Shown here: positions 13,531 to 25,383 of the stretch, one piece after another
Position numbering within the stretch: the first letter of the stretch is position 1
Layout of the letters: each line of letters begins with the position of its first letter
NCBI GenBank assembly: GCA_963764745.1
Contig: CAVXTN010000005.1
Coordinates: 422,207 to 486,206 of the forward strand
Direction: 5' to 3'
From: Candidatus Aminicenantes bacterium
GTDB lineage: Bacteria > Acidobacteriota > Aminicenantia > UBA2199
Length of the DNA stretch: 64,000 nt
Program-made: the position numbers and the translations under genes
Notes under the pieces: model-generated
Told to the model about the DNA's origin: nothing
Database searches by the model: none
What the model saw: the letters and a program-made list of their open reading frames with translations, nothing else

Positions 13531-16500
13531 ATGAACAAGCCCGATGAATTTTTGAAGAACCCAGACACACATAATTTTCCCGGGCCGGGACGCTTTCCCG
13601 AGACCGGAAATAAAAATTGAAGCCAGACGGCTTTGCCAGGCGCTTCGGGATCCAGGGCGGCGAAGCCTTCGACCGCTGGCATGACGAAAAGCTCAGCCTG
13701 ATCACGGTGCCGAATTCTCCGCAAAATCTCGCCCGCCTCCACGATATCTTTGCCTTCCATTCCAATCTCCTGCAAAATATCACCGCTTTCCTGCCAGGCA
13801 ACTTCCAGATCGATATCCTGACGCAGCCGTTTACGGCCAGCGCGCCCGCCGTTCTGGCCGGGCAGCCGGCGGCGGCGGCGGAGAGCATTTTCGGGCAATA
13901 CCTTGCCTTCCTGGGCGCGGCCCGGGAATGGGGCATGGATTTCGTCGATTTTTCCAAATTCCAGATCCTGCCCGGGCGCGACCCTGCGTTTCGGCTGGGA
14001 CCTGGATCGCCACCCCTTCCCTTCCCCCGCCGCTTTCCTGCCCATTTTCAGCCAGAACCGCCACTTGCGCGACCTGGACGAGTGCAATTACCTGGATGTC
14101 ATAAAAAGGACGACAAAGAAGTCCCGGTCTCCGAAGCCGGCCGGCTACCTGTGCCGCGGCGACGATTTCACTTCCAATCTGCTGCATGCCCGCTCGCTGA
14201 ACGGCATGAAGGCCAATGCCGCCATCAGGATCCACACCACTTCCCCCTGGCAGAAACCGATCATCCGCAACAATCTTTTCCATGCCCTGAATGGCGAAGA
14301 ACTCCTCCTGCTGAAAATGGACTTGGAGAGCGTGCCCTTACGCGATTTTTTTTCGGACTTGTGCGGCCGGGAAAAAAGCAACAAGGAGAATCCATCCGCG
14401 CAAGTGCGGGAATTCCGCTCCTTCTTGCAGCAATCGGTTTTTCAAAAGACCGTTTTGCTGATCGACAACCTGGCGAAAAAAGAAGACATCCGGCTGCTCC
14501 GCTACCTGCTGGAAGCAGGAGACATCCCGGGGTTGACCCTCATCCTGTTCAACGACTCCGCACCCTTCGACTGTGACCTTGAATTGCGTGAAGACCCGCC
14601 GGACCAATTGCAAAAATACCTTCCCGCCTTGTTCCCCCGGCCCAGACATCCCGGCCTGAGCAAAAAGGAAAGTGAACTTTTTAAAAAGATCGCCATGATC
14701 GAAGTCCCGGTTCCCGTGGCCGTCGCCCGCTTCCTGGCCGGGCGCGACGGCGGCCCGACCATCGCCGGGCTGTTGAACAAGCAATACCTGACGGAAATCA
14801 AGAACCAGCAAACCCTGTCCCCGAATTTGCCCCGAGCCCAGGCCCGGGCAAACCGGAAGGAAAAGAAGGAATTGCTGGAGCTGCTGGCGGCCGAAACGGA
14901 TTGGGTCTACGCGAAAGTGAGCCGAATGATCGACGACGAGCAATGGGCGGCCCTGGAACAGTACCTGAAGAACATGGCGGCGGAGTCTCCGGGGCTGGTG
15001 GCACCCGGCCCGGCTGCCGAGCTGATCTTGCGCCACCTGCCGCAGATGGCTTCAGCCGGCAAGATCCTGGAATACTTCGTGGAAATCCTCATCCAGAGCG
15101 ACTGCCTGCCGCTGGCCCAAAAAGTGCTTGCCGGATATGCCGAGCCAGGACAAGGTTTTTGCCCGGCTGAAAGCCGCCCACCTGGCCATGAGGAGGAAGG
15201 AATACCCAAGGCTCGGCAAGCTGCTTTCCGGGCTGGGCCGGGTCCCGGAAGAGCTGAGGGACGAATGGCTGTACTTGAAATTCTATTATCATGAAAAAAT
15301 CTCGCAAGCCCAAAAGGCCGACGAATACGAAGGCAAGATCAAAAGCCCGTATTATCGGAATCTGTGCCTCAGCCAATTGAGCGACCGCAGCATCTACAAT
15401 CGCGATTTTGCCAAAGCCCACGCCCAATTGGCCGGAGCCCTGGCCTATTTCGCGAATCGCCGCTTCTGGCGCGAGGAGATCGAGATCCAGAGCCAGATGG
15501 CGAAATTGTGGCGGGAAAAAGGAAATTTCCAGGAAGCCGAATCGCTTTACAAGACCATCTACATTAAAAGCGAAACCGAAGGCCTGGCATTGAGGTCGGC
15601 AGCCATCGCCGTGGACCTGGGCAATTTGTACATGGAAGAGGACGATGATTTTCAAGCCGAATGCTGGTATCAAAAAGCATTGCATTTGTTCGAAAAAGAA
15701 AAGAATGCCGACGGGATCATGCTGGTGAATTCCAACCTGATCAATATTTTTTTCGCCAAGGGCAACTGGCTGGAAGCCGAGAAGCTCCTGCGCGCCGTTC
15801 TGGCGGCCAACGAAGAGAAGCAATTGCCGAATTCCTGCGCCATCGACTACCTGAACTGGGCCAACCTTGAAAATTTGCGCCTGCATGACGACAAGGCCTT
15901 GAAATTGCTCGAACATGCCACGGAAATTTTTAAAAACGCCGGCAACAGCAAAGGGCTTACCGAGTGCGCCTTTCTCAAGGGCCAGAATAGCCTGTTTCGC
16001 CCAAGGGCTCCCGGCCGCCAAGCCCGCGGAAGAAAAATGGTTCAGTGCCGATCAAAGGACCGTCTGCGGCATATTCAGGCAATTCGGCTCCTTGCCCGGC
16101 AAAGGCCGGGAGGCCGCCACGCTCAAGATGCTCGACGGCATCACATCAGAAAAAATCAGGTTCGATACGCTGCGCCTGCTGCTGACGCAGCCACCGGAAA
16201 ACGGAATGGCTGGACCGCTTCAGGGAAATCGCCTGGGAACTTTCCCGGCAGGCGAAAAATTATTATTACTACGAATTTTGGTATATGTATTTTGACCTGA
16301 GCGCGGAAGCCCTGCCCGGCGCCGGCCCGCGGCGCGACGAATTTTTTGCCATGCACGATTTTTTCCGCATGAACAAGAGAACCCTCTCGGCCAAACTCGA
16401 CCACCTGCGCCGGCGCGAGGAAGAGAGCGAAAGTCACCGCGATCTTTTTGACGACGCCCGCCTGGTCGGAAATTACAGGCAATGGCGGCTTCCCGAAGAT

Positions 16501-17810
16501 TTCTTCAACAGTTTTTTTTATGAACTCAACAAACCGGCGCGCATCGATTGGCTGGCCATGTAGATCCACGAAAAGCGGCAGCCGCTTGTTCAAATTCTCG
16601 AGTTCCGGGCTTTGCCAGGAACTTGCGGGAACAAATGCTGCAGCACACCCTGGAGGCACGCGGAAAATCAAGAACTACGACCTGGCCGAGATCAAAAGAA
16701 ATTTCAGCAGCCAGGAAAAATTTTTTTATCCGTTCGCCAATACCAAAATGATCCGCTGGCCGATCGACGAACAGCTCCTGGCCGGCCTGGTCATCGGGTT
16801 CGAGGACGGCGAATTTGTATTTCCAGGATTTTTTCGAGCGCCACAAGGAAACCTTCAAGAAATTCCAGGTGCTGTTTCAAGCATTTTCTGCAAAATGAAT
16901 TCCGTACTCCATGAAAAACTGGATTTCATCGTCGGCGCATCGGAAAAGATCAAGGAAATGAAAACCCTGATCGCCCAGGTCAGCAAGGTGGATTTTTCCC
17001 TGCTGATTACCGGCGAAAGCGGCAGCGGCAAGGAACTGGTGGCCAACGCCGTTCATTTGCTCAGCCCCAGGGCCAGCCAGCCTTTCGTTTCCGTCAATGC
17101 CGCGGCCATACCCGAGACCCTCCTGGAAGCGGAGCTTTTCGGATATAAAAAAGGGGCGTTCAGCGGCGCCGGCGAGAATCGCGTCGGCTTGCTGGAAGCG
17201 GCCGACCGCGGCACATTTTTCCTGGATGAGATCGCCGATCTGCCCCTGCTGCTGCAGGCAAAGGTCCTGCGGGTCCTGCAGGAAAAGGAAATCCGCCGCC
17301 TGGGCGAAAACAAGACCATCAAGATCGATATCCGCCTGATCTCCGCCAGCAACCAGAACCTTGAGGAATTGATCAGGAAAAACCTGTTCCGCGAAGATCT
17401 GTTTTACCGGCTCCAGGACCTGGTCATCCATATTCCGCCCTTGCGGGAAAGGCGGGAGGACATCCCGCTGCTCATCGAATATTTTTTAAGCAAATTCGGT
17501 TATCCCGCGGCAGACGCCGGACAAATTGCTGGCCATCGCCGACCTGTTCGCGCAATGACCGCTTGCCCGGCAATGTGCGCGAACTTGGAATCGAAGATCA
17601 AGAAGATGATCACCTTCAACCCCGAGCTGGAGGTTCCCGCCTGGCGCGAAGACGCAACCGGCAACCTGAAGAGCGCCCGCCAGGCCTTTGAAAGGAATTT
17701 GCTGCTGAATACCTTGAACGAACAGTCCTGGCACAGGGACAAAACCGCTGAAAAGCTGGGCATCAGCCGCATGGCCCTTTTCAAATGCTGAAAAAATATA
17801 AGATAAAAAG
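13531..17810 (+). CDS. Giant sigma-54-dependent transcriptional activator (long divergent N-terminal region, TPRs, AAA+ domain, Fis HTH); multiple frameshifts, end approximate
   Basis: RBS AAGGAGG then ATG at 13531; TPR-like ORF 15128; C-terminal ITGESGSGKELVA, ELFGYKKGAFSGA, FLDEI, FREDLFYRL and HTH (KTAEKLGISRMALF). Confidence 0.85.
13547..13621 (+). repeat. 75-bp direct repeat, copy 2 (inside the predicted 5' end of the sigma-54 activator gene)
   Basis: 63/75 identical to 13213..13287; offset 334 bp. Confidence 0.85.
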
Positions 17811-18733
17811 ATGACGCGCCTGGCTGCTGAAAAAAGCCGGCTGGTTTTTGCTTTTTCTCTGGGCGGCGGGCAGCCTGATATTTCTTACTGGTGCAGGCGG
17901 TCCCCGGCGACCCGCTGCTGTCCATCTTGGGGCAGAGCCCGCGTTCGGCGGACATCCTGCGCTTGCAGGATTCCCTGAAACTGAACCAGCCGTTGCTTTC
18001 GCGTTACGCGCGCTTCATGAAGAAGCTGTGCGTTCTGGATCTGGGAGAATCCCTGATCGACCGCAAGCCGGTTTTGGGTTCCATCCTGAAATATCCTGCC
18101 GAACACCCTGGGCCTGACCCTGGCCGCCATGCTGATATCCGTTGCCGATCGCCTTCCCGCTGGCCATCATGGCCGCTTTCAATAAAAACGGCCCCTGGGA
18201 AGCGCTGGCCATGATTTTTTCGGCCGTCGGGCCTGGCCTTGCCCGGCTTCCTTCTCGGCATCCTGCTGATCCTGGTATTTTCCGTGTCCTGGCACCTTTT
18301 CCCCATCTCCGGCAGCGGCGGTATCCGCTTCCTTGTCCTGCCGGCACTGACACTGGGAATTTCCCTGGGCGCCTTTCTGACGCGCATGGTACGCGCAGTC
18401 CTGAACAGGGAGCTGCAGCAGCCCTACGTGCTCCTGGCCAGAGCCAAGGGGCTTTCCAACGCCCAGATCTACCGGCGGCATGTTTTAAAGAATGCCCTGG
18501 CCCCCATCATCACCCTGATCGGCCTGCAACTGGGCGCCCTGTTGAGCGGAGCCATCATCGTGGAGAGCATCTTTTCCTGGCCGGGGCTCGGCACCCTCCT
18601 GATCACCGCCATCCGCCAGCGCGATTTCCCCATGATCCAGGGAACGGTCCTGTTCATGGCGGTCGCTTATCTGTTGTTGAATTTTCTGGTCGACCTGTCC
18701 TATCCGTTCCTCAACCCCGCGCATCCGCCATGA
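17810..18733 (+). CDS. Peptide/nickel ABC transporter permease (DppB/OppB-like), frameshifted
   Basis: VQAVPGDP, LDLGESL, EAA loop YVLLARAKGLS...RHVLKNAL, VESIFSWPGLG, RDFPMIQG. Confidence 0.9.
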
Positions 18734-19566
18734 TTCGGCTTCATAAGCAAAACCGGCAATTCCGCCTGGGCGTTCTGGCCTCTGGCCGGCCTGGGCCTGG
18801 CGCTGGCCGGCCTGGCCGCTTTCCAGGGGATCAGCTTGCGGCTGCATATCGACCAGCGCCTGCAATCTCCTCCCGCGGCACACTTCCTGGGCACGGATGC
18901 CTTGGGCCGCGACCTGCTTTCCTGCCTGGCGTTCGGCACTCTGGTCTCGTTGGCCATCGGCCTGGCCGCCGTCTTCATCGCCGCCGCCCTCGGCGCCGGC
19001 CTGGGCTTCCTGGCCGGCTGGCATGGCGGCCTGCTCGACATGCCTGCATCATGCGCGGCGCCGATTTCATCCTGGCCTTTCCCGGCATCCTGCTGGCCCT
19101 GGCCCTGATCGCTTTTTGGGGCCAGGGCGTCGTGCAACCTTGTTTTCGCGCTGGCAATCAGCGGCTGGGTAAGCTACGCCCGACTGGTGCGCGGCGAAGT
19201 TCTGAAGATCAAGAGCCAGGAATTCATCCTGGCCGCCCGCGGCTTCAACGCCTCCTCCTGGCAGATCGCCACCCGTCACATGCTGCCGCTGATCTTCCCC
19301 CTGCTGCTGACCCAGGCCGTTTCGGGCGTCGCGGCGGTCATCATGGCCGAATCAAGCCTGAATTTCCTCGGGCTGGGCCTGGACCCGCGGCTGCCGACCC
19401 TGGGCGGCATGATCGATGCCGGCCGCGGCCACCTGTTCGACAACCCGTCCCTGGTCATCCTCCCCGGCGTTTGCCTGATCCTGCTGGTCGCCGGCTTCCT
19501 GCTCCTGGCCGAAGGCCTGAAAATGCGGCCGGCCGGCAGCCGCTTTTGCAAAAAAAAAAGAGATAA
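18730..19566 (+). CDS. Peptide/nickel ABC transporter permease (DppC/OppC-like), frameshifted
   Basis: HFLGTDALGRDLL, QEFILAARGFNAS...RHMLP, AESSLNFLGLG, LGGMI. Confidence 0.9.
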   Translation: MIRLHKQNRQFRLGVLASGRPGPGAGRPGRFPGDQLAAAYRPAPAISSRGTLPGHGCLGPRPAFLPGVRHSGLVGHRPGRRLHRRRPRRRPGLPGRLAWRPARHACIMRGADFILAFPGILLALALIAFWGQGVVQPCFRAGNQRLGKLRPTGARRSSEDQEPGIHPGRPRLQRLLLADRHPSHAAADLPPAADPGRFGRRGGHHGRIKPEFPRAGPGPAAADPGRHDRCRPRPPVRQPVPGHPPRRLPDPAGRRLPAPGRRPENAAGRQPLLQKKKR

Positions 19567-19619
19567 GTATACAATCAAGGCCGTTCCCATCGCGACGGCA
19601 GACGACAGGGAGGTCGGAC

Positions 19620-19908
19620 ATGGAGAAAAGAAAGGAAATACGCATCAAAAAAAGGATCCTCTCCAGCCTGGAAGAAAAACCGGCCATCATCGTCGACATA
19701 TCGCAGAGCGGAATCAGAATTTCCATGAGCCGGCCTCCGAAGAACCAGGACGTCGACATCAAGCTGCAAATCGGCGGCAAGGTGATCAACTTGAAAGGCG
19801 ATGTCCGCTGGATCAACCGCATGGCTCCAACCAGGCTTCCAACAATATCGGCATCGCCATCCGCGAAGCCCCGCCCGAATACTACGACATGCTGACGGTT
19901 TCCGCTAG
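19620..19908 (+). CDS. Small stand-alone PilZ-domain protein (frameshift near 19830; end approximate)
   Basis: EKRKEIR (RxxxR-like) and DISQSG (D/NxSxxG) motifs, then GDVRW and IGI. Confidence 0.75.
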
Positions 19909-19949
19909 GCAGCGAACCTTAAAAAACGGAGCCGCTTCGGAGACGTCGG

Positions 19950-22928
19950 CTACTCTTCCTTGGCCCCGGCCAGCAATTGTTCGCCGGCAAGCGGCGGCCG
20001 CGGCCGGTTCGGGGACGATCTCGATTTCATCGTCGCGCAGGCGGCAGACCAGGTAGCGGGCGTCCTCCCACTCTTTTTCCAGCGACAGGTAGGCGATTTT
20101 TTCCAGCAGTTCCTTTTTCAGGACCCGGGTCAGGTTGCGCGCCCCGTATTCGAGGGAATAGCCCCTGGCGGCGATGTGGGCCAGCACATCATCCTTGACG
20201 ACCAGTTCCTTGCCCTGTTTTTCCAGGTCGTGGCGCACTTCCCGCAAATGGATGTCGATGATGGCCTTGATGTCGGCGTCACGCAGGTGGCGGAAAACGA
20301 TGATCTCATCGATGCGGTTGAGGAATTCCGGGGAAAAATATTTTTTCAGGGACTTGATCAGGGTGGCCCGGGAAACCTGCGTCCCCTCCTGGCTGCTCTT
20401 GTAGCCCATGTTGGCCTTGGAAAACAAGGCGGTGCCGATGTTGGAGGTCATGACGATGGTGGTTTTGGAAAAATCGATCACGTTGCCGCGGGCGTCGGTC
20501 AGGCGGCCGGCGTCGAAGACCTGCAGGAAAATATTCAACAGCTGGGCGTCGGCCTTTTCAATTTCATCCAGCAGGATGATCGAATACGGGATTTTGCCGC
20601 ACCTTGTCGGTCAGCTGGTTGGAGTCATAATAGCCCACATATCCGGGAGCCGCGCCGACAAAGCGCGAATAGGTGAATTTTTCCATGTATTCGGACATGT
20701 CGATGCGGATCAGGTAATCCTGGCTGCCGTAAAGGGCTTCGCTCAGGGCGATGGCCGTTTCGGTCTTGCCGACCCCGGTCGGGCCGATGAACATGAAGAC
20801 GCCGTCCGGCCGGTTTTTCTTGATGTCGTAGCCCAGCTTGGAGGTGATCACCGACGAAACCATCTTGGCCACCGCTTCGTCCTGGCCGACGATCCGTTTC
20901 AGGATATTGCCGCGCAACGCCGTCAGGCGGCTCTTCAAGGAAATGGAGATGTTGGTTTCCGGGAGATTGCCGATGTCGGCCAAAACCTCCAGCACATCGG
21001 ACTCCTCGATCTTCAGCGGCGCCGCCCTGGACGGAAATGTTCTTCAGCTTGACCTTGGCGATGCACCTTTCCAGGAGCATGATGGCCGAATCGGGCAGTT
21101 TCCTCTCCCGGATATCCCTTTTGGCGCTCTCGACGATGTCTTCGACGATCTGGTTGGAGACCAGCAGGTTGTCGGCTGGCGACCACCTGGCTGACCAGGT
21201 TCTTCAGAATTTTACGCGTGCCTTCCGGCGACAACTCGTTGACGATGATTTTCTGGAAATAGCCCAGCAGGGAATTGTCCTTTTCAATGGTGTTCTTGTA
21301 TTCCTCGTAGTCGGTGCTGGCGATCACCTGGATGGAATTGTCACGCAGGAAATTCTTGAGGATATTGACCAGGTCCAGCGACGTGCCCCGGGCCGCCCCG
21401 GTGGACATCATCAGGTGCATGTCTTCCAGCACCAGGATGGCGTTCTGGGATTTGAATTCCTGCAGGAGTTTCAGGACCTTTTCCTCGAATTGGCCGCGGT
21501 ATTTCGAACCGGTGAGCAGGCTGACGAAATTGATCTCCTTGATCTTCTTTTCCTTCAGCGCCGGCGGCACTTCGTCGAAAATGATCTTCTGGGCCAGCAG
21601 GCGGATCAGGGTCGATTTGCCCACCCCGCGTTCGCCGATCAGCAGCAGGTTCCTTTTCGAATTGGAGATGAGGATCTCGATCATCTGGCGGAGTTCCTTG
21701 CCGCGGCCGATGATCCTCTCCTCGTTCTGGATCACGGTTTCGGTGATATCGAAAAAAGCGTCGTTTTTCTGGGCGTCGGGCTTGCTCTTGCTCTTGTCGA
21801 TGCTTTCCCGCAGCTTTTTGATCTTGTCGCCCAAGCTTTTGCTCTGGGCGATCAGCAGCGCCTTTTCATAAAAATTCAGGGCCAGTTCGATGTTTTCTTC
21901 CCTGGCATAGACGTCGCCCATCATTTCGTGCCCTTCGGCGTAAAAGGGATAAAAAAGCAGGAATTTCTGCAGCAGGCGCTTCATTTCCAGGGCGCGGTTC
22001 AAATTGGCCAGGTTGCGTGATCTGCAAGAGATAGATCAGGGGCATGTTGAAATCTTCGAAAGCGATCTCCTCCAGCTGCAGCAGACTTTCCGTGAACAAT
22101 CTTCAGCTGCTGGTTGCGGTAGGCCGCCTCCACTTCGCGCCATTTGCTCCAAGAATCCGCCCTCGCTCCTTCGGCAATTGCGGCTCGGATGCCGCTCCAG
22201 GTCGGCAAAGCAAAAATTGGCCAGGTAGAATTCGCCGATTTTCTGCCAGACGCTCTTCCGCGTTCACGACGATCTCCTCGCCGCTGGTCGAGATTGCCGA
22301 AGATCACCTCGCTCTGCCGCGGGTCGCGACAGAAACAAGACCCGCTCGTTCTGAACGATCACAAAGGGAAAAAGGCTGAAATTCATGGTGGCATTGCCGT
22401 AGATCAGCTCATCATGCAGCGCGTTCCATGGGGACCGAAAAGGTTTTTTGGCGTCACCCTTTTGTTGACGTCACCGCGCCGCTGATCTTCTGGTCGAAAA
22501 GCTTGAACAGGTTTTCGATCCAGAATTTGTAATCGGCAAAAAGGTTCTTTTTTTCCTTGTCTTCGGCCTGCAGGCGGCCGTTTTTAAAGTAGTCGCTCAG
22601 GTTTTCCAGTATGAACACCAGCGTCTGCCTCTCGGTCTTGCTCATGCTCAAGACCTGGGTGTTGAATGTCTGCAAATAGGCGATGATGTTCTCCAGGACC
22701 TGCAGAATATCGTTGTCGAAAAAACGTTTTCCCGGCCGGGAGTTGGAAATTCTTTTTGCGGGCCAGGTTTTCGGCCTTGAACAGGGCGTCCAGGATATGG
22801 ACGATATAAAATATCAGGCGGTCCGAATTTTCCTTGTTGAATTCACGTTTCTCAAATTTGAAATCGGGCAGAAAAATGGCCAGAAACATGCCCATTCTTC
22901 CAAATTGGCCAAAATGTGGGTCCATCAT
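19950..22928 (-). CDS. Atypical ClpA/B/C-family AAA+ ATPase with long N-terminal domain including a TPR; heavily frameshifted, possibly two genes split near 22454
   Basis: NBD1: IIGRGKELRQMIEIL...GERGVGKS...GSKYRGQFEEKV. NBD2: FIGPTGVGKTE, RIDMSEYME, GAAPGYVGY, LLDEIEKA, DAGRLTD, TSNIG, FSPEFLNRID, YGARNL. The upstream reading 22928..22000 appears continuous once indels are allowed. Confidence 0.85.
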
Positions 22929-22956
22929 GCGCTCCGCTTGTTTTCGCCTGACATTG

Positions 22957-23022
22957 ATTATATTGACAATATTCCGCAAAAGTCAATTTGAAATTGCTTT
23001 TTCGGTCCGGGTTTGCTATACT
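22957..23022. promoter_or_regulatory. Back-to-back divergent sigma-70-type promoters for the Clp ATPase (-) and the kinase (+)
   Basis: Minus strand TTGACT(22986-22981)-N18-TATAAT(22962-22957); plus strand TTGCTT(22994-22999)-N17-TATACT(23017-23022). Confidence 0.55.
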
Positions 23023-23035
23023 TTTTCCTGGAAAC

Positions 23036-25383
23036 ATGGATGAATTACTGAGCAATCCTCTGGTCAAATTGGCCATCATCGCGGCCGTGATGGCATTGAT
23101 CCTGAAGATCGTCTACCAGATCCTGAAGACGGCCAAGGTGTCTGCCTTTCAGAACCGGTCGTTTTTCGAGGCGTTCTTTTACCTGCTGGCCAAAAAGGCC
23201 TACATGGACCGCGACGCCAAGAGGGCCCGCAAGCAGAACATGTTCCTCAAGTCCGGAAAAATATACGAAGAGATCGGCGAATTTAAAAAAGCCCTGCAGG
23301 TCTACGAGGAAGGCCAGGAATACGACGTCATGGGCGAACTGCTGGAAAAGCTGAACAAGGAAAGCGAGGCCATCGAAATATACAAAAAAAGCGGCAACAG
23401 CGACAACCTGGTCAAGCTGCTGCTCAAGCGCAAAAACATCGAAGCCGCCGGGACCGTGCTGGAGAACAACAATCGCTTCCAGGAGGCGGCCGAATTATAT
23501 TACAACTATGAACGGTATGAAAAAGCCGCCCAGATCTATGAAAAAAAAGGATTTTACAAGAAAGCGGCCTATATCTATGAAAAAGGCGGCAATTTGAAGA
23601 AAGCCGCCGTGCAATTTTGAAAAATGGTTCATCACCAGTTTCGACACCACGGTGGGCTACCAGAACTCCAAGCAGCTGGAGCAGGAATTGCTCAAAGCCG
23701 TGGAGTTGTATACCCAGCTGAACGAATTGGAAAAAGCCTACGACCTGCTGATCAAGTACGGAAAATTCGAAAAAGCCGCCGAAATCGCGGTCAAAATGAA
23801 CAAACTCCCCGAGGCCGCCAAGAATTTTGAAAAAGCCCAACTGCCGCTCAAGGCCGCCGAGATCTACGAGCAGATCGAACGAGCCCAAGATCGCCTTCCT
23901 GCTGCGCGGCGAGAACGCTTTTGCCAAGGGCAACACCCTGGAAGCGGCCGAATGGTTTTTAAAGGGCGAGGACTACACCCGGGCAGCCGAACTGTTCGAA
24001 TGGGACAAGAAATACGCCAAGGCCGCCCACTGCTATTTCATGAACCAGAATTTTCTGGGGGCCGCCGAAAACTACCTGAAGGACAACAACGAAGAAGAAG
24101 CGGCCAAGATGTTCGAAATGGGCCGGGAATGGAAGATGGCGGCCAATATCTCCATGAAATACGGAAAATTCCAGAAAGCCGGGGAACTGTACGAAAACGC
24201 CCAGGAATACTTCAAGGCCGGGGTCTCGTTCATCAAGGTGGACGATGACCGCCGCGCCCTGTCCGATTTCCAGCTCGTCCCCGTCGATTCCCCCGATTTC
24301 AACACCGCCATCACCCACATGGCGAACATCTTTTTAAAGAACCGCAAGCCGCAGCTGGTCATCGAAAAAATCGAAAAATTGCTCGGCGAAAACCAGATCG
24401 ACAAGTCCAACATCGAGTGGTTCTACGTCCTGGGGCAGGCCTACGAAAACGCGGGCAACTTCAAAAAAGCGTTTGAGATCTACCAGATGATCCTGACCGA
24501 GGACTATTCGTTCAAGGACGTGCACCAGAAGATCAAGGACGTGGAGAACCTGATCCAGAAATACAAGGAAATGGAGCTGATCAGCGAGGATTCCAGCGAA
24601 CGCTACCGCATCATCGAAAAGATCGGCGAGGGCGGCATGGGCGTGGTGTTCAAGGCCGAAGACACGGTCCTGAAGCGCGTGGTGGCCCTGAAGATCCTGA
24701 ACAAGACCCTGGTCACCGACAAGCGCAACCTGGAGCGCTTCTTTTCCGAAGCGCGCTCCACGGCATCGCTGACCCAGGCCAACATCGTCACGGTGTACGA
24801 CGTCGGCCAGATCAAGGACGACTATTTCATTTCCATGGAATATATCGAAGGGGAAAATTTCATGAACCTCATCCGCCGCAAGAAGGCTTTCTCCCCGTCG
24901 CAGATCATTTTCATCGCCATCAAGCTTTTCAAGGCCCTGGATTATTCGCACCGCAAGGGGATCATTCACCGCGACATCAAGCCGCACAACATCATGATCA
25001 CCAAGCAAAAGGAAATAAAGATCATGGATTTCGGCCTGGCCGTGATCCTGGGCGACCAGAAAAAAGGCGAAAGCGGTGTCATCACCGGCACGCCCTATTA
25101 CATGTCCCCGGAACAGATCCAGGGCATCCCGGTCGATCACCGCACCGATATCTATTCGTCGGGCACCACCCTGTTCCATCTGACCACCGGCCACGTCCCC
25201 TTCAAGGGCGAAAATATTTTTTACCAGCACCTGTTCGACCCGGTGCCGCCGATCAAGAAATACCGCACCGATGTTCCCGAAAAACTGTGCTACATCATCG
25301 AAAAGTGCATGGAAAAGAAGCGCGAGCAGAGATTCCAAAGCGCCATGGAAGTATTGAACGAAATGAAAACCATCAAAATATGA
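23036..25383 (+). CDS. Hanks-type Ser/Thr protein kinase with N-terminal TM helix and long helical (TPR-like) repeat region; two frameshifts
   Basis: GEGGMGVV, VALK, HRDIKPHN, DFG, GTPYYMSPEQ, DIYS; repeats such as YEKAAQIYEKKG and FEKAAEIAVK. Confidence 0.92.

What the first reader, a model, noticed from the sequence alone, without database searches (positions are those of the whole stretch)
19950..22928. Clp/Hsp100 ATPase with a TPR-bearing novel N-domain and an apparently dead first ATPase ring
NBD1 keeps Walker A (GERGVGKS) and the pore loop (KYRG). Its Walker B reads VLEDMH instead of FIDEIH, and the arginine-finger motif AALERRF is replaced by NSLLGYF (seen). NBD2 is canonical (GPTGVGKT, GYVG, DEIEKA) and carries MGY at the position of the ClpP-docking IGF/LGF loop. 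The usual Clp-N repeats are replaced by about 370 aa of unknown helical sequence ending in a TPR. Inference: a specialised unfoldase driven only by NBD2 that selects substrates or an adaptor through its TPR.
Basis: partly seen in the sequence, partly recalled or inferred. Interest (0 to 1): 0.72.

Follow-up and report, generated by a model that had tools for sequence, protein, structure and literature searches.

The report
Aminicenantes Clp unfoldase, degenerate first ring
This gene encodes a member of a previously undescribed branch of the Clp/Hsp100 protein-unfolding ATPases, found only in uncultured Aminicenantes bacteria. The first ATPase ring has lost its catalytic residues but stays strongly conserved, the usual N-domain is replaced by an unknown fold plus TPR repeats, and the gene sits head-to-head with a Ser/Thr kinase gene.

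Summary
In this window the gene is not one ORF: 14 frameshifts break it, with no in-frame stop. Five adjacent genes on both strands (13.9-24 kb) carry the same damage, so it is a regional assembly error, not a pseudogene. Orthologues in 23 of 24 same-genus genomes are intact ORFs of about 985-1000 aa.

The protein is ClpA-like: N-domain, D1, D2, no M-domain. It forms its own well-supported branch, separate from the true ClpA and ClpB encoded in the same genomes.

- **D1:** all 33 full-length species representatives of its clade keep Walker A and the KYRG pore loop. Walker B reads L-E-D instead of D-E, and both arginine fingers are lost (G-Y/F/H/V). D1 remains 80% identical on average.
- **D2:** fully canonical.
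- **ClpP loop:** a conserved [MLV]-G-[YF] aligns with the ClpC VGF loop and lies at about the same spacing as the [VM]GF of the genomes' own ClpA.
- **N-domain (about 395 aa):** a confidently modelled 250-aa fold with no PDB match, followed by about 3 TPRs.
- **Kinase:** a membrane-anchored kinase gene is the divergent neighbour in 38 of 41 species.

This is a new variant of a known kind. The mechanism is inferred, not tested.

The parts
19950..22928 (-). Whole Clp/Hsp100-like gene (conceptual product about 985 aa). Broken in this assembly by 14 frameshifts at about 22724, 22455, 22426, 22317, 22289, 22255, 22190, 22146, 22100, 22018, 21177, 21020, 20590 and 19992.
   Evidence: Intact orthologues of 985-1000 aa.
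22478..22928 (-). N-domain part 1 (aa 1-150): bundle of four long helices. Carries the most conserved N-domain motifs, [RK]TERQT[FL] and FWIENxFK.
   Evidence: AF2 models with pLDDT 84 and 86. No PDB fold match, best E 0.56. Invariant columns.
22265..22477 (-). N-domain part 2 (aa 151-220): seven-stranded beta meander after a disordered loop (aa 156-170). The least conserved part of the protein and the site of most assembly frameshifts.
21790..22258 (-). N-domain part 3 (aa 223-376): helical hairpins. Within them, about 115-160 residues align to 3-4-TPR domains.
   Evidence: Foldseek hits to MamA, CTPR3 (1na0, TMt 0.84, rmsd 1.9), Sgt2/SGT, HOP TPR2A and RPAP3. Sub-threshold Pfam TPR_1/2/8. 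Generic TPR proteins match profile positions of about 300-360.
21238..21720 (-). D1 large AAA+ subdomain (aa 400-560). Walker A GERGVGKS 21636..21613. Pore loop KYRG 21504..21493. Walker B ILVLEDMH 21438..21415 (E-D where Clp has D-E). Sensor-1 position in VIASTD 21327..21310 (Asp where Clp has Thr). Arg-finger position in NSLLGYFQ 21276..21253 (G-Y where Clp has R-R).
21008..21228 (-). D1 small subdomain (AAA_lid_9, aa 564-636). A short D1-D2 linker follows, with no M-domain.
   Evidence: Pfam. LPDxAI-to-Walker A2 spacing is 104 aa, against 102 in ClpA and 222 in ClpB paralogues. ClpA aligns in one stretch.
20302..20812 (-). D2 large subdomain (AAA_2, aa 702-871). Walker A GPTGVGKT 20785..20762. 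Pore loop GYVG 20644..20633. Walker B ILLDEIEKA 20577..20551. Sensor-1 TSNIG 20448..20434. Putative ClpP-docking tripeptide MGY 20409..20401.
20068..20286 (-). D2 small subdomain (ClpB_D2-small, aa 877-949) with sensor-2 GARNLTR at 20145..20125.
22957..22986 (-). Near-consensus sigma-70-type promoter: TTGACT, 18-nt spacer, TATAAT (11 of 12). It ends about 29 nt upstream of the ATG.
   Evidence: Most same-genus-level loci keep AAATTGAC[AT]-17/18-TATAAT at a similar distance from the start.
22988..25383 (+). Divergently transcribed gene. It encodes one N-terminal hydrophobic helix, about 500 aa of alpha-solenoid (TPR/SNAP/clathrin-like) and a C-terminal Hanks Ser/Thr kinase with HRD and DFG present. 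It is 828 aa in the intact orthologue and has 4 frameshifts in the window.
   Evidence: Divergent neighbour in 38 of 41 species genomes and in contigs carrying members about 55% identical.
19620..19895 (+). Small PilZ-domain ORF, convergent with the 3' end of the Clp-like gene.
   Evidence: Pfam PilZ, E 1.3e-7. Found downstream of the Clp-like gene in 21 of the 41 loci; a response-regulator-LpxC fusion takes that position in two distant members.

Best explanation
The gene encodes a class-I (two-ring) Clp/Hsp100 unfoldase of a distinct subfamily restricted to the Aminicenantes lineage. It is additional to that lineage's ordinary ClpA, ClpB, ClpX and ClpP.

**Shown here**
- The architecture is ClpA-like: N-domain, D1, D2, no M-domain.
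- D2 is a fully canonical motor.
- D2 carries a conserved hydrophobic-Gly-aromatic tripeptide where ClpA, ClpC and ClpX dock onto ClpP.
- D1 keeps the P-loop lysine and the substrate-gripping KYRG pore loop and is under strong purifying selection.
- D1 has Walker B D-E swapped to E-D, sensor-1 Thr changed to Asp or Asn, and both trans-acting arginines replaced by Gly-aromatic.
- The Clp_N repeats are replaced by a 395-aa domain found only in this family: a 250-aa helical-bundle/beta-meander fold with no PDB match, then about three TPRs.
- The gene has its own conserved strong sigma-70-type promoter.
- It is paired head-to-head with a membrane-anchored alpha-solenoid Ser/Thr kinase gene.

**Inferred**
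- The protein forms a hexamer.
- D1 binds ATP but hydrolyses it very slowly or not at all. It then serves as a stable assembly platform and substrate-holding collar.
- D2 alone powers translocation into ClpP.
- The N-domain, rather than ClpS- or MecA-type adaptors, chooses the substrates.
- Substrate choice or unfoldase activity is coupled to the neighbouring kinase.

The frameshifts in this window are assembly errors.
For: Family and architecture:
- Pfam domains.
- Best PDB relatives are ClpC at 1e-124, and ClpA aligns in one stretch.
- Best NCBIfam model is ClpA at 506 bits.
- D1-D2 spacing is 104 aa, against 102 in ClpA and 222 in ClpB.
- The family is one branch (SH-aLRT 100), apart from the ClpA, ClpB and ClpC-like paralogues of the same class.
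- Those paralogues pass the ClpA and ClpB equivalog cut-offs.

D1 and D2 residues:
- Census of 125 members and of 33 species representatives. All have LED, G[YFHV], KYRG and GxxGVGK[ST]. D2 motifs are invariant.
- D1-large mean pairwise identity is 0.80, against 0.87 for D2-large and 0.38-0.55 for the N-domain.

Consequence of losing the arginines:
- R322A, R323A and the double mutant of ClpB NBD1 lose about 1000-fold ATPase activity yet still bind nucleotide (PMC4239642).
- In ClpA, NBD1 ATP binding drives hexamerisation and NBD2 does most of the hydrolysis (bioRxiv 10.1101/2025.08.12.669770).

ClpP coupling:
- MGY aligns with VGF of B. subtilis ClpC.
- [MLVI]G[YF] is conserved family-wide.
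- The spacing matches the [VM]GF of the genomes' own ClpA to within a residue, and ClpB paralogues lack the tripeptide.
- A single clpP is present in 37 of 41 related genomes.

N-domain:
- AF2 pLDDT 84 and 86.
- Only TPR hits in PDB for the whole N-domain. None for residues 1-254.
- A profile search of 1.84 billion representatives finds the full domain only at the N-terminus of proteins of about 1000 aa, or in shorter hits that look like fragments.

Kinase pairing.

Promoter.

Assembly error:
- 14 frameshifts, all extra bases, with no in-frame stop.
- The four flanking genes in 13.9-24 kb carry 15, 6, 3 and 4 frameshifts, while genes further out carry 0-3.
- Orthologues are intact.
Against: - No biochemical data exist for any member.
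- E-D at Walker B could retain some Mg2+ coordination and catalysis, and another basic residue might substitute for the arginine fingers.
- In ClpB the D1 arginines are needed for nucleotide-driven oligomerisation. A hexamer without them needs another assembly determinant, and none has been identified.
- Tyr in place of Phe or Leu in the ClpP loop is untested.
- clpP is not adjacent. It lies next to clpX on another contig.
- The kinase is adjacent only in the ED clade. The class-level DD homologues have unrelated neighbours, although kinase orthologues exist elsewhere in those genomes.
- The Foldseek TPR hits are weak by E-value (about 1e-3).
- No library of predicted cellular structures was available.
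Confidence: 0.55

Rival explanations
1. A ClpP-independent remodelling or holding chaperone. The MGY tripeptide would be a relic or serve another contact. The protein would unfold, extract or hold specific clients (for example membrane-proximal complexes near the kinase) without degrading them, as ClpB, ClpV or Skd3 do.
For: - clpP is not in the neighbourhood.
- Tyr at the third loop position has not been validated in characterised ClpP partners (my recollection; not checked here).
- An ATP-locked D1 with intact pore loops would suit holding (inference).
Against: - The tripeptide is conserved as hydrophobic-Gly-aromatic over the whole family, including IGF, VGF and MGF in class-level members.
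- It sits at about the same spacing as in the same genomes' ClpA, while ClpB paralogues lack it.
- There is no M-domain for Hsp70 coupling.
Confidence: 0.2
2. D1 is still a working, if unusual, ATPase. Glu would coordinate Mg2+, Asp would act as the base, and a different residue would supply the trans-acting positive charge. Both rings would then drive translocation.
For: - D1 is very strongly conserved (0.80 mean identity).
- The E-D pair is invariant rather than drifting.
- Class-level relatives have D-D, which fits loose Walker B definitions (hhhhD[DE]), and they keep one or two arginines.
Against: - Three catalytic elements changed together in the clade: Walker B, sensor-1 and both arginines.
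- Single Arg-to-Ala changes in ClpB NBD1 cost about 1000-fold in ATPase.
- Strong conservation is equally expected for a nucleotide-binding structural ring.
Confidence: 0.15
3. The copy in this genome is a genuine, recently inactivated pseudogene rather than a victim of assembly error.
For: - 14 frameshifts in 3 kb.
- Reads could not be checked.
Against: - All 14 events are extra bases and there are no in-frame stops.
- Amino-acid identity to the closest orthologue is high wherever the frame is followed, against 87% at nucleotide level.
- The adjacent sigma-54 activator, two ABC permeases and the kinase carry the same kind of damage (15, 6, 3 and 4 events), on both strands. Genes outside 13.9-24 kb are nearly clean.
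- The genome is in 15 contigs but only 71.65% complete by marker genes. I take that as typical of an indel-rich long-read assembly.
Confidence: 0.04
4. The kinase plus the AAA+ ATPase form a mobile anti-phage defence pair.
For: PADLOC models hit both proteins: DolB and PDC-M37B for the ATPase, PD-T4-6 and mad6 for the kinase.
Against: - The hits cover only the generic AAA_2 and kinase domains.
- The pair is single-copy and syntenic in every species of the genus.
- The clade forms a single, deeply diverged branch.
- It is flanked by housekeeping genes, not by a variable island.
Confidence: 0.03

Closest known systems
ClpA (E. coli type; NCBIfam TIGR02639)
   Same: - Two AAA+ rings with no M-domain.
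- Nearly identical D1-D2 spacing (104 against 102 aa).
- D2 carries a hydrophobic-Gly-aromatic ClpP loop at about the same spacing.
- Aligns in a single stretch and is the best NCBIfam model.
- In ClpA, D1 is mainly the assembly ring and D2 the main hydrolysing ring.
   Different: - Scores 506 bits against a cut-off of 993.
- No Clp_N domain, so no ClpS site.
- D1 Walker B is ED, there are no Arg fingers, and sensor-1 is Asp.
- Separate tree branch from the genuine ClpA of the same genomes.
ClpC (S. aureus, B. subtilis; PDB 6em9, 3j3t)
   Same: - Closest solved relatives by sequence (E 1e-124 to 1e-116).
- D2 and its VGF loop align directly with MGY.
- ClpC is functionally tied to a protein kinase that marks substrates (McsB arginine kinase; my recollection).
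   Different: - No M-domain coiled coil, no Clp_N and no MecA- or McsB-type partner genes.
- The neighbouring kinase is a Hanks Ser/Thr kinase, not McsB.
- D1 is catalytically degenerate.
Apicoplast ClpM (Plasmodium)
   Same: An Hsp100 with a non-canonical, presumably inactive D1 and a functional D2 (bioRxiv 10.64898/2026.05.20.726455).
   Different: - ClpM has lost Walker A as well as Walker B, and it lacks the ClpP-binding motif.
- Here Walker A, the pore loop and the ClpP loop are all kept, and D1 is highly conserved.
- The lineages are unrelated, so this is convergence.
Skd3 / human CLPB, and two-ring AAA+ proteins with one inactive ring (NSF D2, Pex1/Pex6 D1)
   Same: - Design principle: a helical-repeat N-domain plus a single working Hsp100 D2-type motor (Skd3; it appears among the PDB hits).
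- Alternatively, one structural ring plus one motor ring (Pex1/6 and NSF; my recollection, with Pex1/6 papers listed).
   Different: - Skd3 has no D1 at all and has ankyrin repeats rather than TPRs.
- NSF and Pex belong to the classic AAA clade, not to Hsp100.
- None of them docks to ClpP.

Membership tests
Clp/Hsp100 class I (two-ring) AAA+ ATPases | Tandem AAA+ modules: D1 (AAA + AAA_lid_9) and D2 (AAA_2 + ClpB_D2-small) | tested here: met
   Pfam hits are all above the gathering cut-offs. PDB hits to ClpC, ClpB and ClpA range from 1e-124 to 1e-104.
Clp/Hsp100 class I (two-ring) AAA+ ATPases | Canonical catalytic set in both rings (Walker A K, Walker B DE, Arg fingers) | tested here: not met
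   D2 is canonical. D1 has Walker B ED and G-Y at the Arg-finger positions, conserved in all 33 species representatives.
ClpA (TIGR02639 equivalog) | Whole-protein score above the curated cut-off (993 bits) | tested here: not met
   506 bits. The same genomes' real ClpA scores 1058-1070.
ClpA (TIGR02639 equivalog) | Clp_N double repeat at the N-terminus (ClpS binding) | tested here: not met
   No Clp_N hit. The N-domain model has a different fold.
ClpA (TIGR02639 equivalog) | No M-domain between D1 and D2 | tested here: met
   Spacing is 104 aa, against 102 (ClpA) and 222 (ClpB). Single-stretch alignment.
ClpB (TIGR03346) and ClpV (TIGR03345), ClpK/ClpG | Score above the curated cut-off; long M-domain coiled coil; no ClpP loop | tested here: not met
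   487, 449, 420 and 409 bits, against cut-offs of 1232, 885, 1900 and 1900. No M-domain, and the tripeptide loop is present.
ClpP-partner unfoldases (ClpA/ClpC/ClpE/ClpX) | Hydrophobic-Gly-Phe/Leu tripeptide on the D2 loop after sensor-1 | tested here: inconclusive
   The position and spacing are met and [MLVI]G[YF] is conserved. In this clade the third residue is Tyr, and binding to ClpP has not been tested.
ClpP-partner unfoldases (ClpA/ClpC/ClpE/ClpX) | Physical and functional coupling to ClpP | not testable with these tools
   Only co-occurrence is shown: clpP is present in 37 of 41 related genomes and is not adjacent.
TPR domain proteins | Tandem 34-residue helix-turn-helix repeats | tested here: met
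   The AF2 model has paired helices across aa 255-376. Foldseek aligns 114-160 columns to 3-4-TPR structures with TMt up to 0.85. Pfam TPR models stay below the cut-off.

The most novel reading that the evidence does not exclude
The unfoldase and the divergently encoded membrane Ser/Thr kinase form a phospho-dependent proteolysis switch. The lineage-specific N-domain would read Ser/Thr-phosphorylated clients, or would itself be switched by phosphorylation, and deliver them to ClpP through a D2-only motor. D1 would act as an ATP-locked assembly and holding ring. This would be a Hanks-kinase analogue of the McsB-phosphoarginine/ClpC system, built on a new substrate-recognition fold.
Probability: 0.15. 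Interest if true: 0.8.

Novelty: new variant of a known kind. Interest (0 to 1): 0.55.

Why it matters
**A natural test of D1's role.** How much work the D1 ring of two-ring Hsp100 machines must do, beyond assembly, is still debated on the basis of engineered Walker B and arginine-finger mutants. This clade is a natural version of that experiment. Walker B and both arginine fingers are altered, yet the P-loop, the pore loop and the overall D1 sequence remain under strong selection. The class-level sister lineages (Walker B D-D, one or two arginines retained) provide intermediate states.

**A new recognition domain.** The N-domain is family-specific, confidently modelled and has no solved structural relative.

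**A possible kinase link.** The gene is conserved next to a membrane Ser/Thr kinase gene in a phylum with no cultured representatives. If the link is functional, it would widen the known ways in which bacteria mark proteins for Clp-dependent unfolding.

**Annotation.** Public annotation calls these proteins ClpC, ClpA or 'AAA family ATPase'. That hides the fact that they fail every curated Clp equivalog.

Tried and rejected
- **Gene-specific pseudogene.** My first impression, from simple tblastn HSP counts, was that this gene carried far more frameshifts than its neighbours. Frameshift-aware alignment showed the neighbours are equally damaged, so I dropped the pseudogene reading.
- **Fold of the N-terminal 254 residues.** Nothing turned up: Pfam, Foldseek against PDB (best E 0.56), and an HMM profile against 1.84 billion representatives, which found only the family itself plus generic TPR hits.
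- **Operon partners in class-level homologues.** There is no consistent partner. One lineage has SppA (Peptidase_S49) plus an unknown gene immediately upstream. The others have unrelated genes.
- **Defence system.** PADLOC hits are generic domain matches. Rejected.
- **Literature.** Searches for Aminicenantes plus Clp, and for Hsp100 proteins with a degenerate D1, found no description of this subfamily. The only precedent found was apicoplast ClpM.
- **Not attempted.**
  - A tree with named external references such as ClpE, ClpL and ClpV.
Full report
**1. What is in the window**

The finding lies on the minus strand.
- The start is the ATG at 22928 and the stop is TAG at 19952..19950.
- The reading frame is not continuous. 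tblastn with the closest orthologue splits the gene into pieces in all three frames.
- A frameshift-aware protein-to-DNA alignment needs 14 frameshifts, all of them extra bases in the window. Ten are in 22724..22018 and the others are at about 21177, 21020, 20590 and 19992. There is no in-frame stop.

**2. Why the frameshifts are assembly errors**

- The nucleotide alignment to the orthologue is 87% identical, and the indels are almost all +1 insertions next to substitutions.
- The same analysis on twelve neighbouring genes gave clear results:
  - sigma-54 activator, 13.6-17.8 kb: 15 frameshifts
  - two ABC permeases: 6 and 3
  - kinase: 4
  - genes outside 13.9-24 kb: 0-3
- The damage therefore covers five adjacent genes on both strands. 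It is not specific to this gene.
- The genome is in 15 contigs but only 71.65% complete by marker genes. I take that to be typical of an indel-rich long-read assembly.
- Orthologues in 23 of 24 same-genus genomes are intact ORFs whose products run 985-1000 aa from the conserved start.

**3. Identity of the protein**

- Pfam finds AAA (D1), AAA_lid_9, AAA_2 (D2) and ClpB_D2-small, and no Clp_N.
- The closest solved relatives are S. aureus and B. subtilis ClpC (E 1e-124 to 1e-116). ClpA aligns in one uninterrupted stretch.
- The best NCBIfam model is ClpA at 506 bits against a cut-off of 993. ClpB, ClpV, ClpK and ClpG are also far below their cut-offs.
- The distance from the D1 LPDxAI motif to the D2 Walker A is 104 aa. 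It is 102 aa in the genomes' own ClpA and 222 aa in their ClpB. There is no M-domain.
- The same genomes encode a genuine ClpA (1058-1070 bits) and a genuine ClpB (1265-1364 bits). They also encode ClpX next to a single ClpP.
- In a maximum-likelihood tree of the D1-D2 cores, the family is one side of a branch with SH-aLRT 100, opposite the ClpA, ClpB and ClpC-like paralogues of the same class. That tree came from a quick search and is unrooted.

**4. Distribution**

- A search of 5.8 billion proteins returned 620 hits, and the 120 listed are 53-97% identical to the query. Sources label them 'ClpC', 'ClpA' or 'AAA family ATPase', and most named records come from Candidatus Aminicenantes or Acidobacteriota MAGs.
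- A scan of one genome per species found the full N-domain in 41 species genomes, all MAGs, with N-domain identity from 96% down to 32%.
- More distant homologues (30-39% identity) occur in three other families of the same class.

**5. The D1 ring**

The gap-free alignment to ClpC gives these equivalences:

| Element | ClpC | This protein |
|---|---|---|
| Walker A | LIGEPGVGKT | LIGERGVGKS |
| Walker B | ILFIDELH | ILVLEDMH |
| Sensor-1 region | IGATT | IASTD |
| Arg fingers | ALERRFQ | SLLGYFQ |

- The Mg2+-binding Asp has become Glu. The catalytic Glu has become Asp. Sensor-1 Thr has become Asp. Both trans-acting arginines are gone.
- In a census of 125 family members and 33 full-length species representatives, all members of the window's clade have L-E-D, G-[YFHV], KYRG and GxxGVGK[ST].
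- The class-level homologues have I-D-D at Walker B, or V-E-D in one of them. Nine of the ten retain one or two arginines (IRNFQ, TRLFQ, IRRFH).
- The catalytic Glu-to-Asp change is therefore old. If the tree is rooted on the canonical Clp proteins, the ED swap and the loss of the arginines are derived characters of one monophyletic clade.
- D1 is not decaying. Mean pairwise identity of its large subdomain within the clade is 0.80, against 0.87 for D2-large and 0.38-0.55 for the N-domain.
- Published work on ClpB NBD1 shows that R322A, R323A and the double mutant lose about 1000-fold ATPase activity. [quoted passage not shown]
- In ClpA, ATP binding at NBD1 drives hexamerisation and NBD2 performs most of the hydrolysis (bioRxiv 10.1101/2025.08.12.669770).
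- My inference is that D1 is a nucleotide-binding ring that hydrolyses very slowly or not at all and still contacts substrate through its pore loop. How the hexamer is stabilised without the arginines is open.

**6. D2 and ClpP**

- All D2 catalytic motifs are conserved in every sequence examined: GPTGVGKT and GYVG without exception, and Walker B LDE-EKA, sensor-1 TSN-G and sensor-2 GAR with only conservative variation at neighbouring positions.
- The tripeptide MGY aligns with VGF of B. subtilis ClpC.
- Across the family the tripeptide is [MLVI]G[YF], including IGF, VGF and MGF in the class-level members.
- It lies nine residues after SNxG. The genomes' ClpA carries [VM]GF after eight or nine residues, and their ClpB has nothing comparable.
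- This is good positional evidence for ClpP docking. It is not proof, because Tyr at the third position is untested.
- clpP is single-copy, present in 37 of 41 related genomes and located elsewhere in the genome.

**7. The N-domain**

- An AlphaFold2 model of residues 1-400, built on 20 aligned family members, has mean pLDDT 84 and pTM 0.84.
- It shows a bundle of four long helices (aa 32-147), a disordered loop (aa 156-170), a seven-stranded beta meander (aa 151-220) and then helical hairpins (aa 223-376).
- Foldseek against PDB matches only the last part, over 114-160 columns. The hits are 3-4-TPR domains: MamA, consensus CTPR3 (TMt 0.84, rmsd 1.9 Å), Sgt2/SGT, HOP TPR2A, RPAP3 and CHIP. E-values are about 1e-3.
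- A separate model of residues 1-254 (pLDDT 86, pTM 0.87) has no PDB match better than E 0.56.
- A profile of the whole N-domain searched against 1.84 billion representative proteins finds the full domain only at the N-terminus of proteins of about 930-1000 aa, or in shorter hits (about 120-520 aa) that I take to be fragments. All other hits are generic multi-TPR proteins that match only profile positions of about 300-360.
The non-TPR two-thirds is a family-specific module, and it is at least as conserved as the TPR.

**8. Genomic context**

- Within the genus the gene order is conserved:
  - sigma-54 activator with TPRs (1394 aa)
  - two ABC permeases
  - a small PilZ gene, shown separately to lie downstream of the Clp-like gene in 21 of the 41 loci
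  - the Clp-like gene on the minus strand
  - the kinase gene on the plus strand
  - an acyl-CoA dehydrogenase
- The kinase (828 aa in the intact orthologue) has one N-terminal hydrophobic helix and about 500 aa of alpha-solenoid with weak TPR, SNAP and clathrin hits. It ends in a Hanks kinase domain with VALK, HRD and DFG present.
- The kinase is the divergent upstream neighbour in 38 of the 41 species genomes that carry the N-domain.
- It is also the neighbour on metagenome contigs whose Clp-like protein is only 55% identical, where the downstream neighbour differs.
- The class-level DD homologues are not next to a kinase. Kinase orthologues (30-35% identity in the solenoid) exist elsewhere in those genomes.
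- Among the related genomes searched, every lineage that carries the Clp-like family also carries the kinase. One family has the kinase without the Clp-like gene, and two families have neither.
- A near-consensus sigma-70-type promoter (TTGACT, 18 nt, TATAAT) ends about 29 nt upstream of the start codon. Most genus-level loci keep it at a similar distance from the start.

**9. Mechanism proposed**

- Shown: the domain architecture, the motif states and their conservation, the separate phylogenetic position, the position of the ClpP loop, the N-domain fold classes, and the pairing with the kinase gene.
- Inferred:
  - A hexamer forms in which D1 binds ATP and acts as a static assembly and substrate-holding ring.
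  - D2 is the sole motor and threads substrate into ClpP.
  - The N-domain, rather than Clp_N with ClpS or MecA, selects the clients.
  - The kinase is functionally coupled to the system. It may mark clients, regulate the unfoldase, or act as a membrane-anchored adaptor through its solenoid.
- I put about 0.55 on this package as a whole. The main rivals are:
  - a ClpP-independent chaperone (0.2)
  - a D1 that still hydrolyses ATP (0.15)
  - a true pseudogene in this genome (0.04)
  - a defence system (0.03; the PADLOC hits are generic)

**10. Comparison with known systems and novelty**

- The protein works most like ClpA or ClpC. It fails the ClpA, ClpB, ClpV and ClpK/G equivalog tests and lacks Clp_N.
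- The only Hsp100 with a degenerate D1 that I found in the literature is apicoplast ClpM. ClpM has also lost Walker A and the ClpP motif, so it represents a different state in an unrelated lineage.
- Skd3 (helical-repeat N-domain plus a single D2-type motor) and NSF or Pex1/6 (one structural ring plus one motor ring) are conceptual analogues.
- No paper in the searchable library describes this subfamily.
- Earlier first-stage notes on three other genomes reported the same ED swap, MGY and kinase neighbour. Those claims were tested here and hold.
- Verdict: a real feature and a new variant of a known kind. It is of moderate to good interest for AAA+ mechanism and for Clp substrate selection. 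All mechanistic steps are still inferred.

Noticed in passing
window 13900-24000: This roughly 10-kb stretch is dense in extra-base frameshifts: about 42 events across five consecutive genes on both strands. Genes before 11 kb and after 25 kb carry 0-1 each. It looks like a locally unpolished or strain-mixed part of a long-read assembly. Any ORF-based reading in this stretch needs an orthologue as a guide.
   Followed up: yes
window 13617-17782 (+): A very large sigma-54 activator, 1394 aa in the intact orthologue. It has a long N-terminal region with MalT-like TPRs ahead of the Sigma54_activat, AAA_lid_14 and HTH_8 domains. It is syntenic with the Clp-like gene within the genus, and a partial match to its C-terminal part lies near one class-level homologue (L040).
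   Followed up: partly
window 19620-19895 (+): A small PilZ-domain ORF is convergent with the 3' end of the Clp-like gene. It is present in 21 of the 41 loci. A response-regulator-LpxC fusion gene takes that position in two distant members. The C-terminal 20 residues of the window ORF read out of frame.
   Followed up: partly
L039 6117-11801 (class-level genome G027): In one distant lineage the Clp-like homologue is the third gene of a tightly packed co-directional set: SppA (Peptidase_S49, a ClpP-clan peptidase), an unknown 305-aa protein, then the Clp-like gene. This could hint at a different peptidase partner in that lineage.
   Followed up: no
window 22988-24600 (+), kinase N-terminal half: The kinase's solenoid consists of repeated 'YEKxG/AAxxYE'-type helical hairpins, with weak Pfam hits to SNAP (the NSF adaptor), clathrin and IFT TPR models. 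A SNAP-like adaptor next to a two-ring AAA+ protein is suggestive, but the hits are far below the cut-offs.
   Followed up: no
L057, L059, L060, L062, L072, L077 and others (record titles): Several public MAGs that carry this Aminicenantes-specific gene pair are labelled by their submitters as Patescibacteria, Chrysiogenales, Omnitrophota, Deferrimicrobium or 'uncultured Clostridia'. At least three of them (L057, L060 and L062) are the same contigs as genomes the genome search places in the window's genus. The record labels are unreliable.
   Followed up: no
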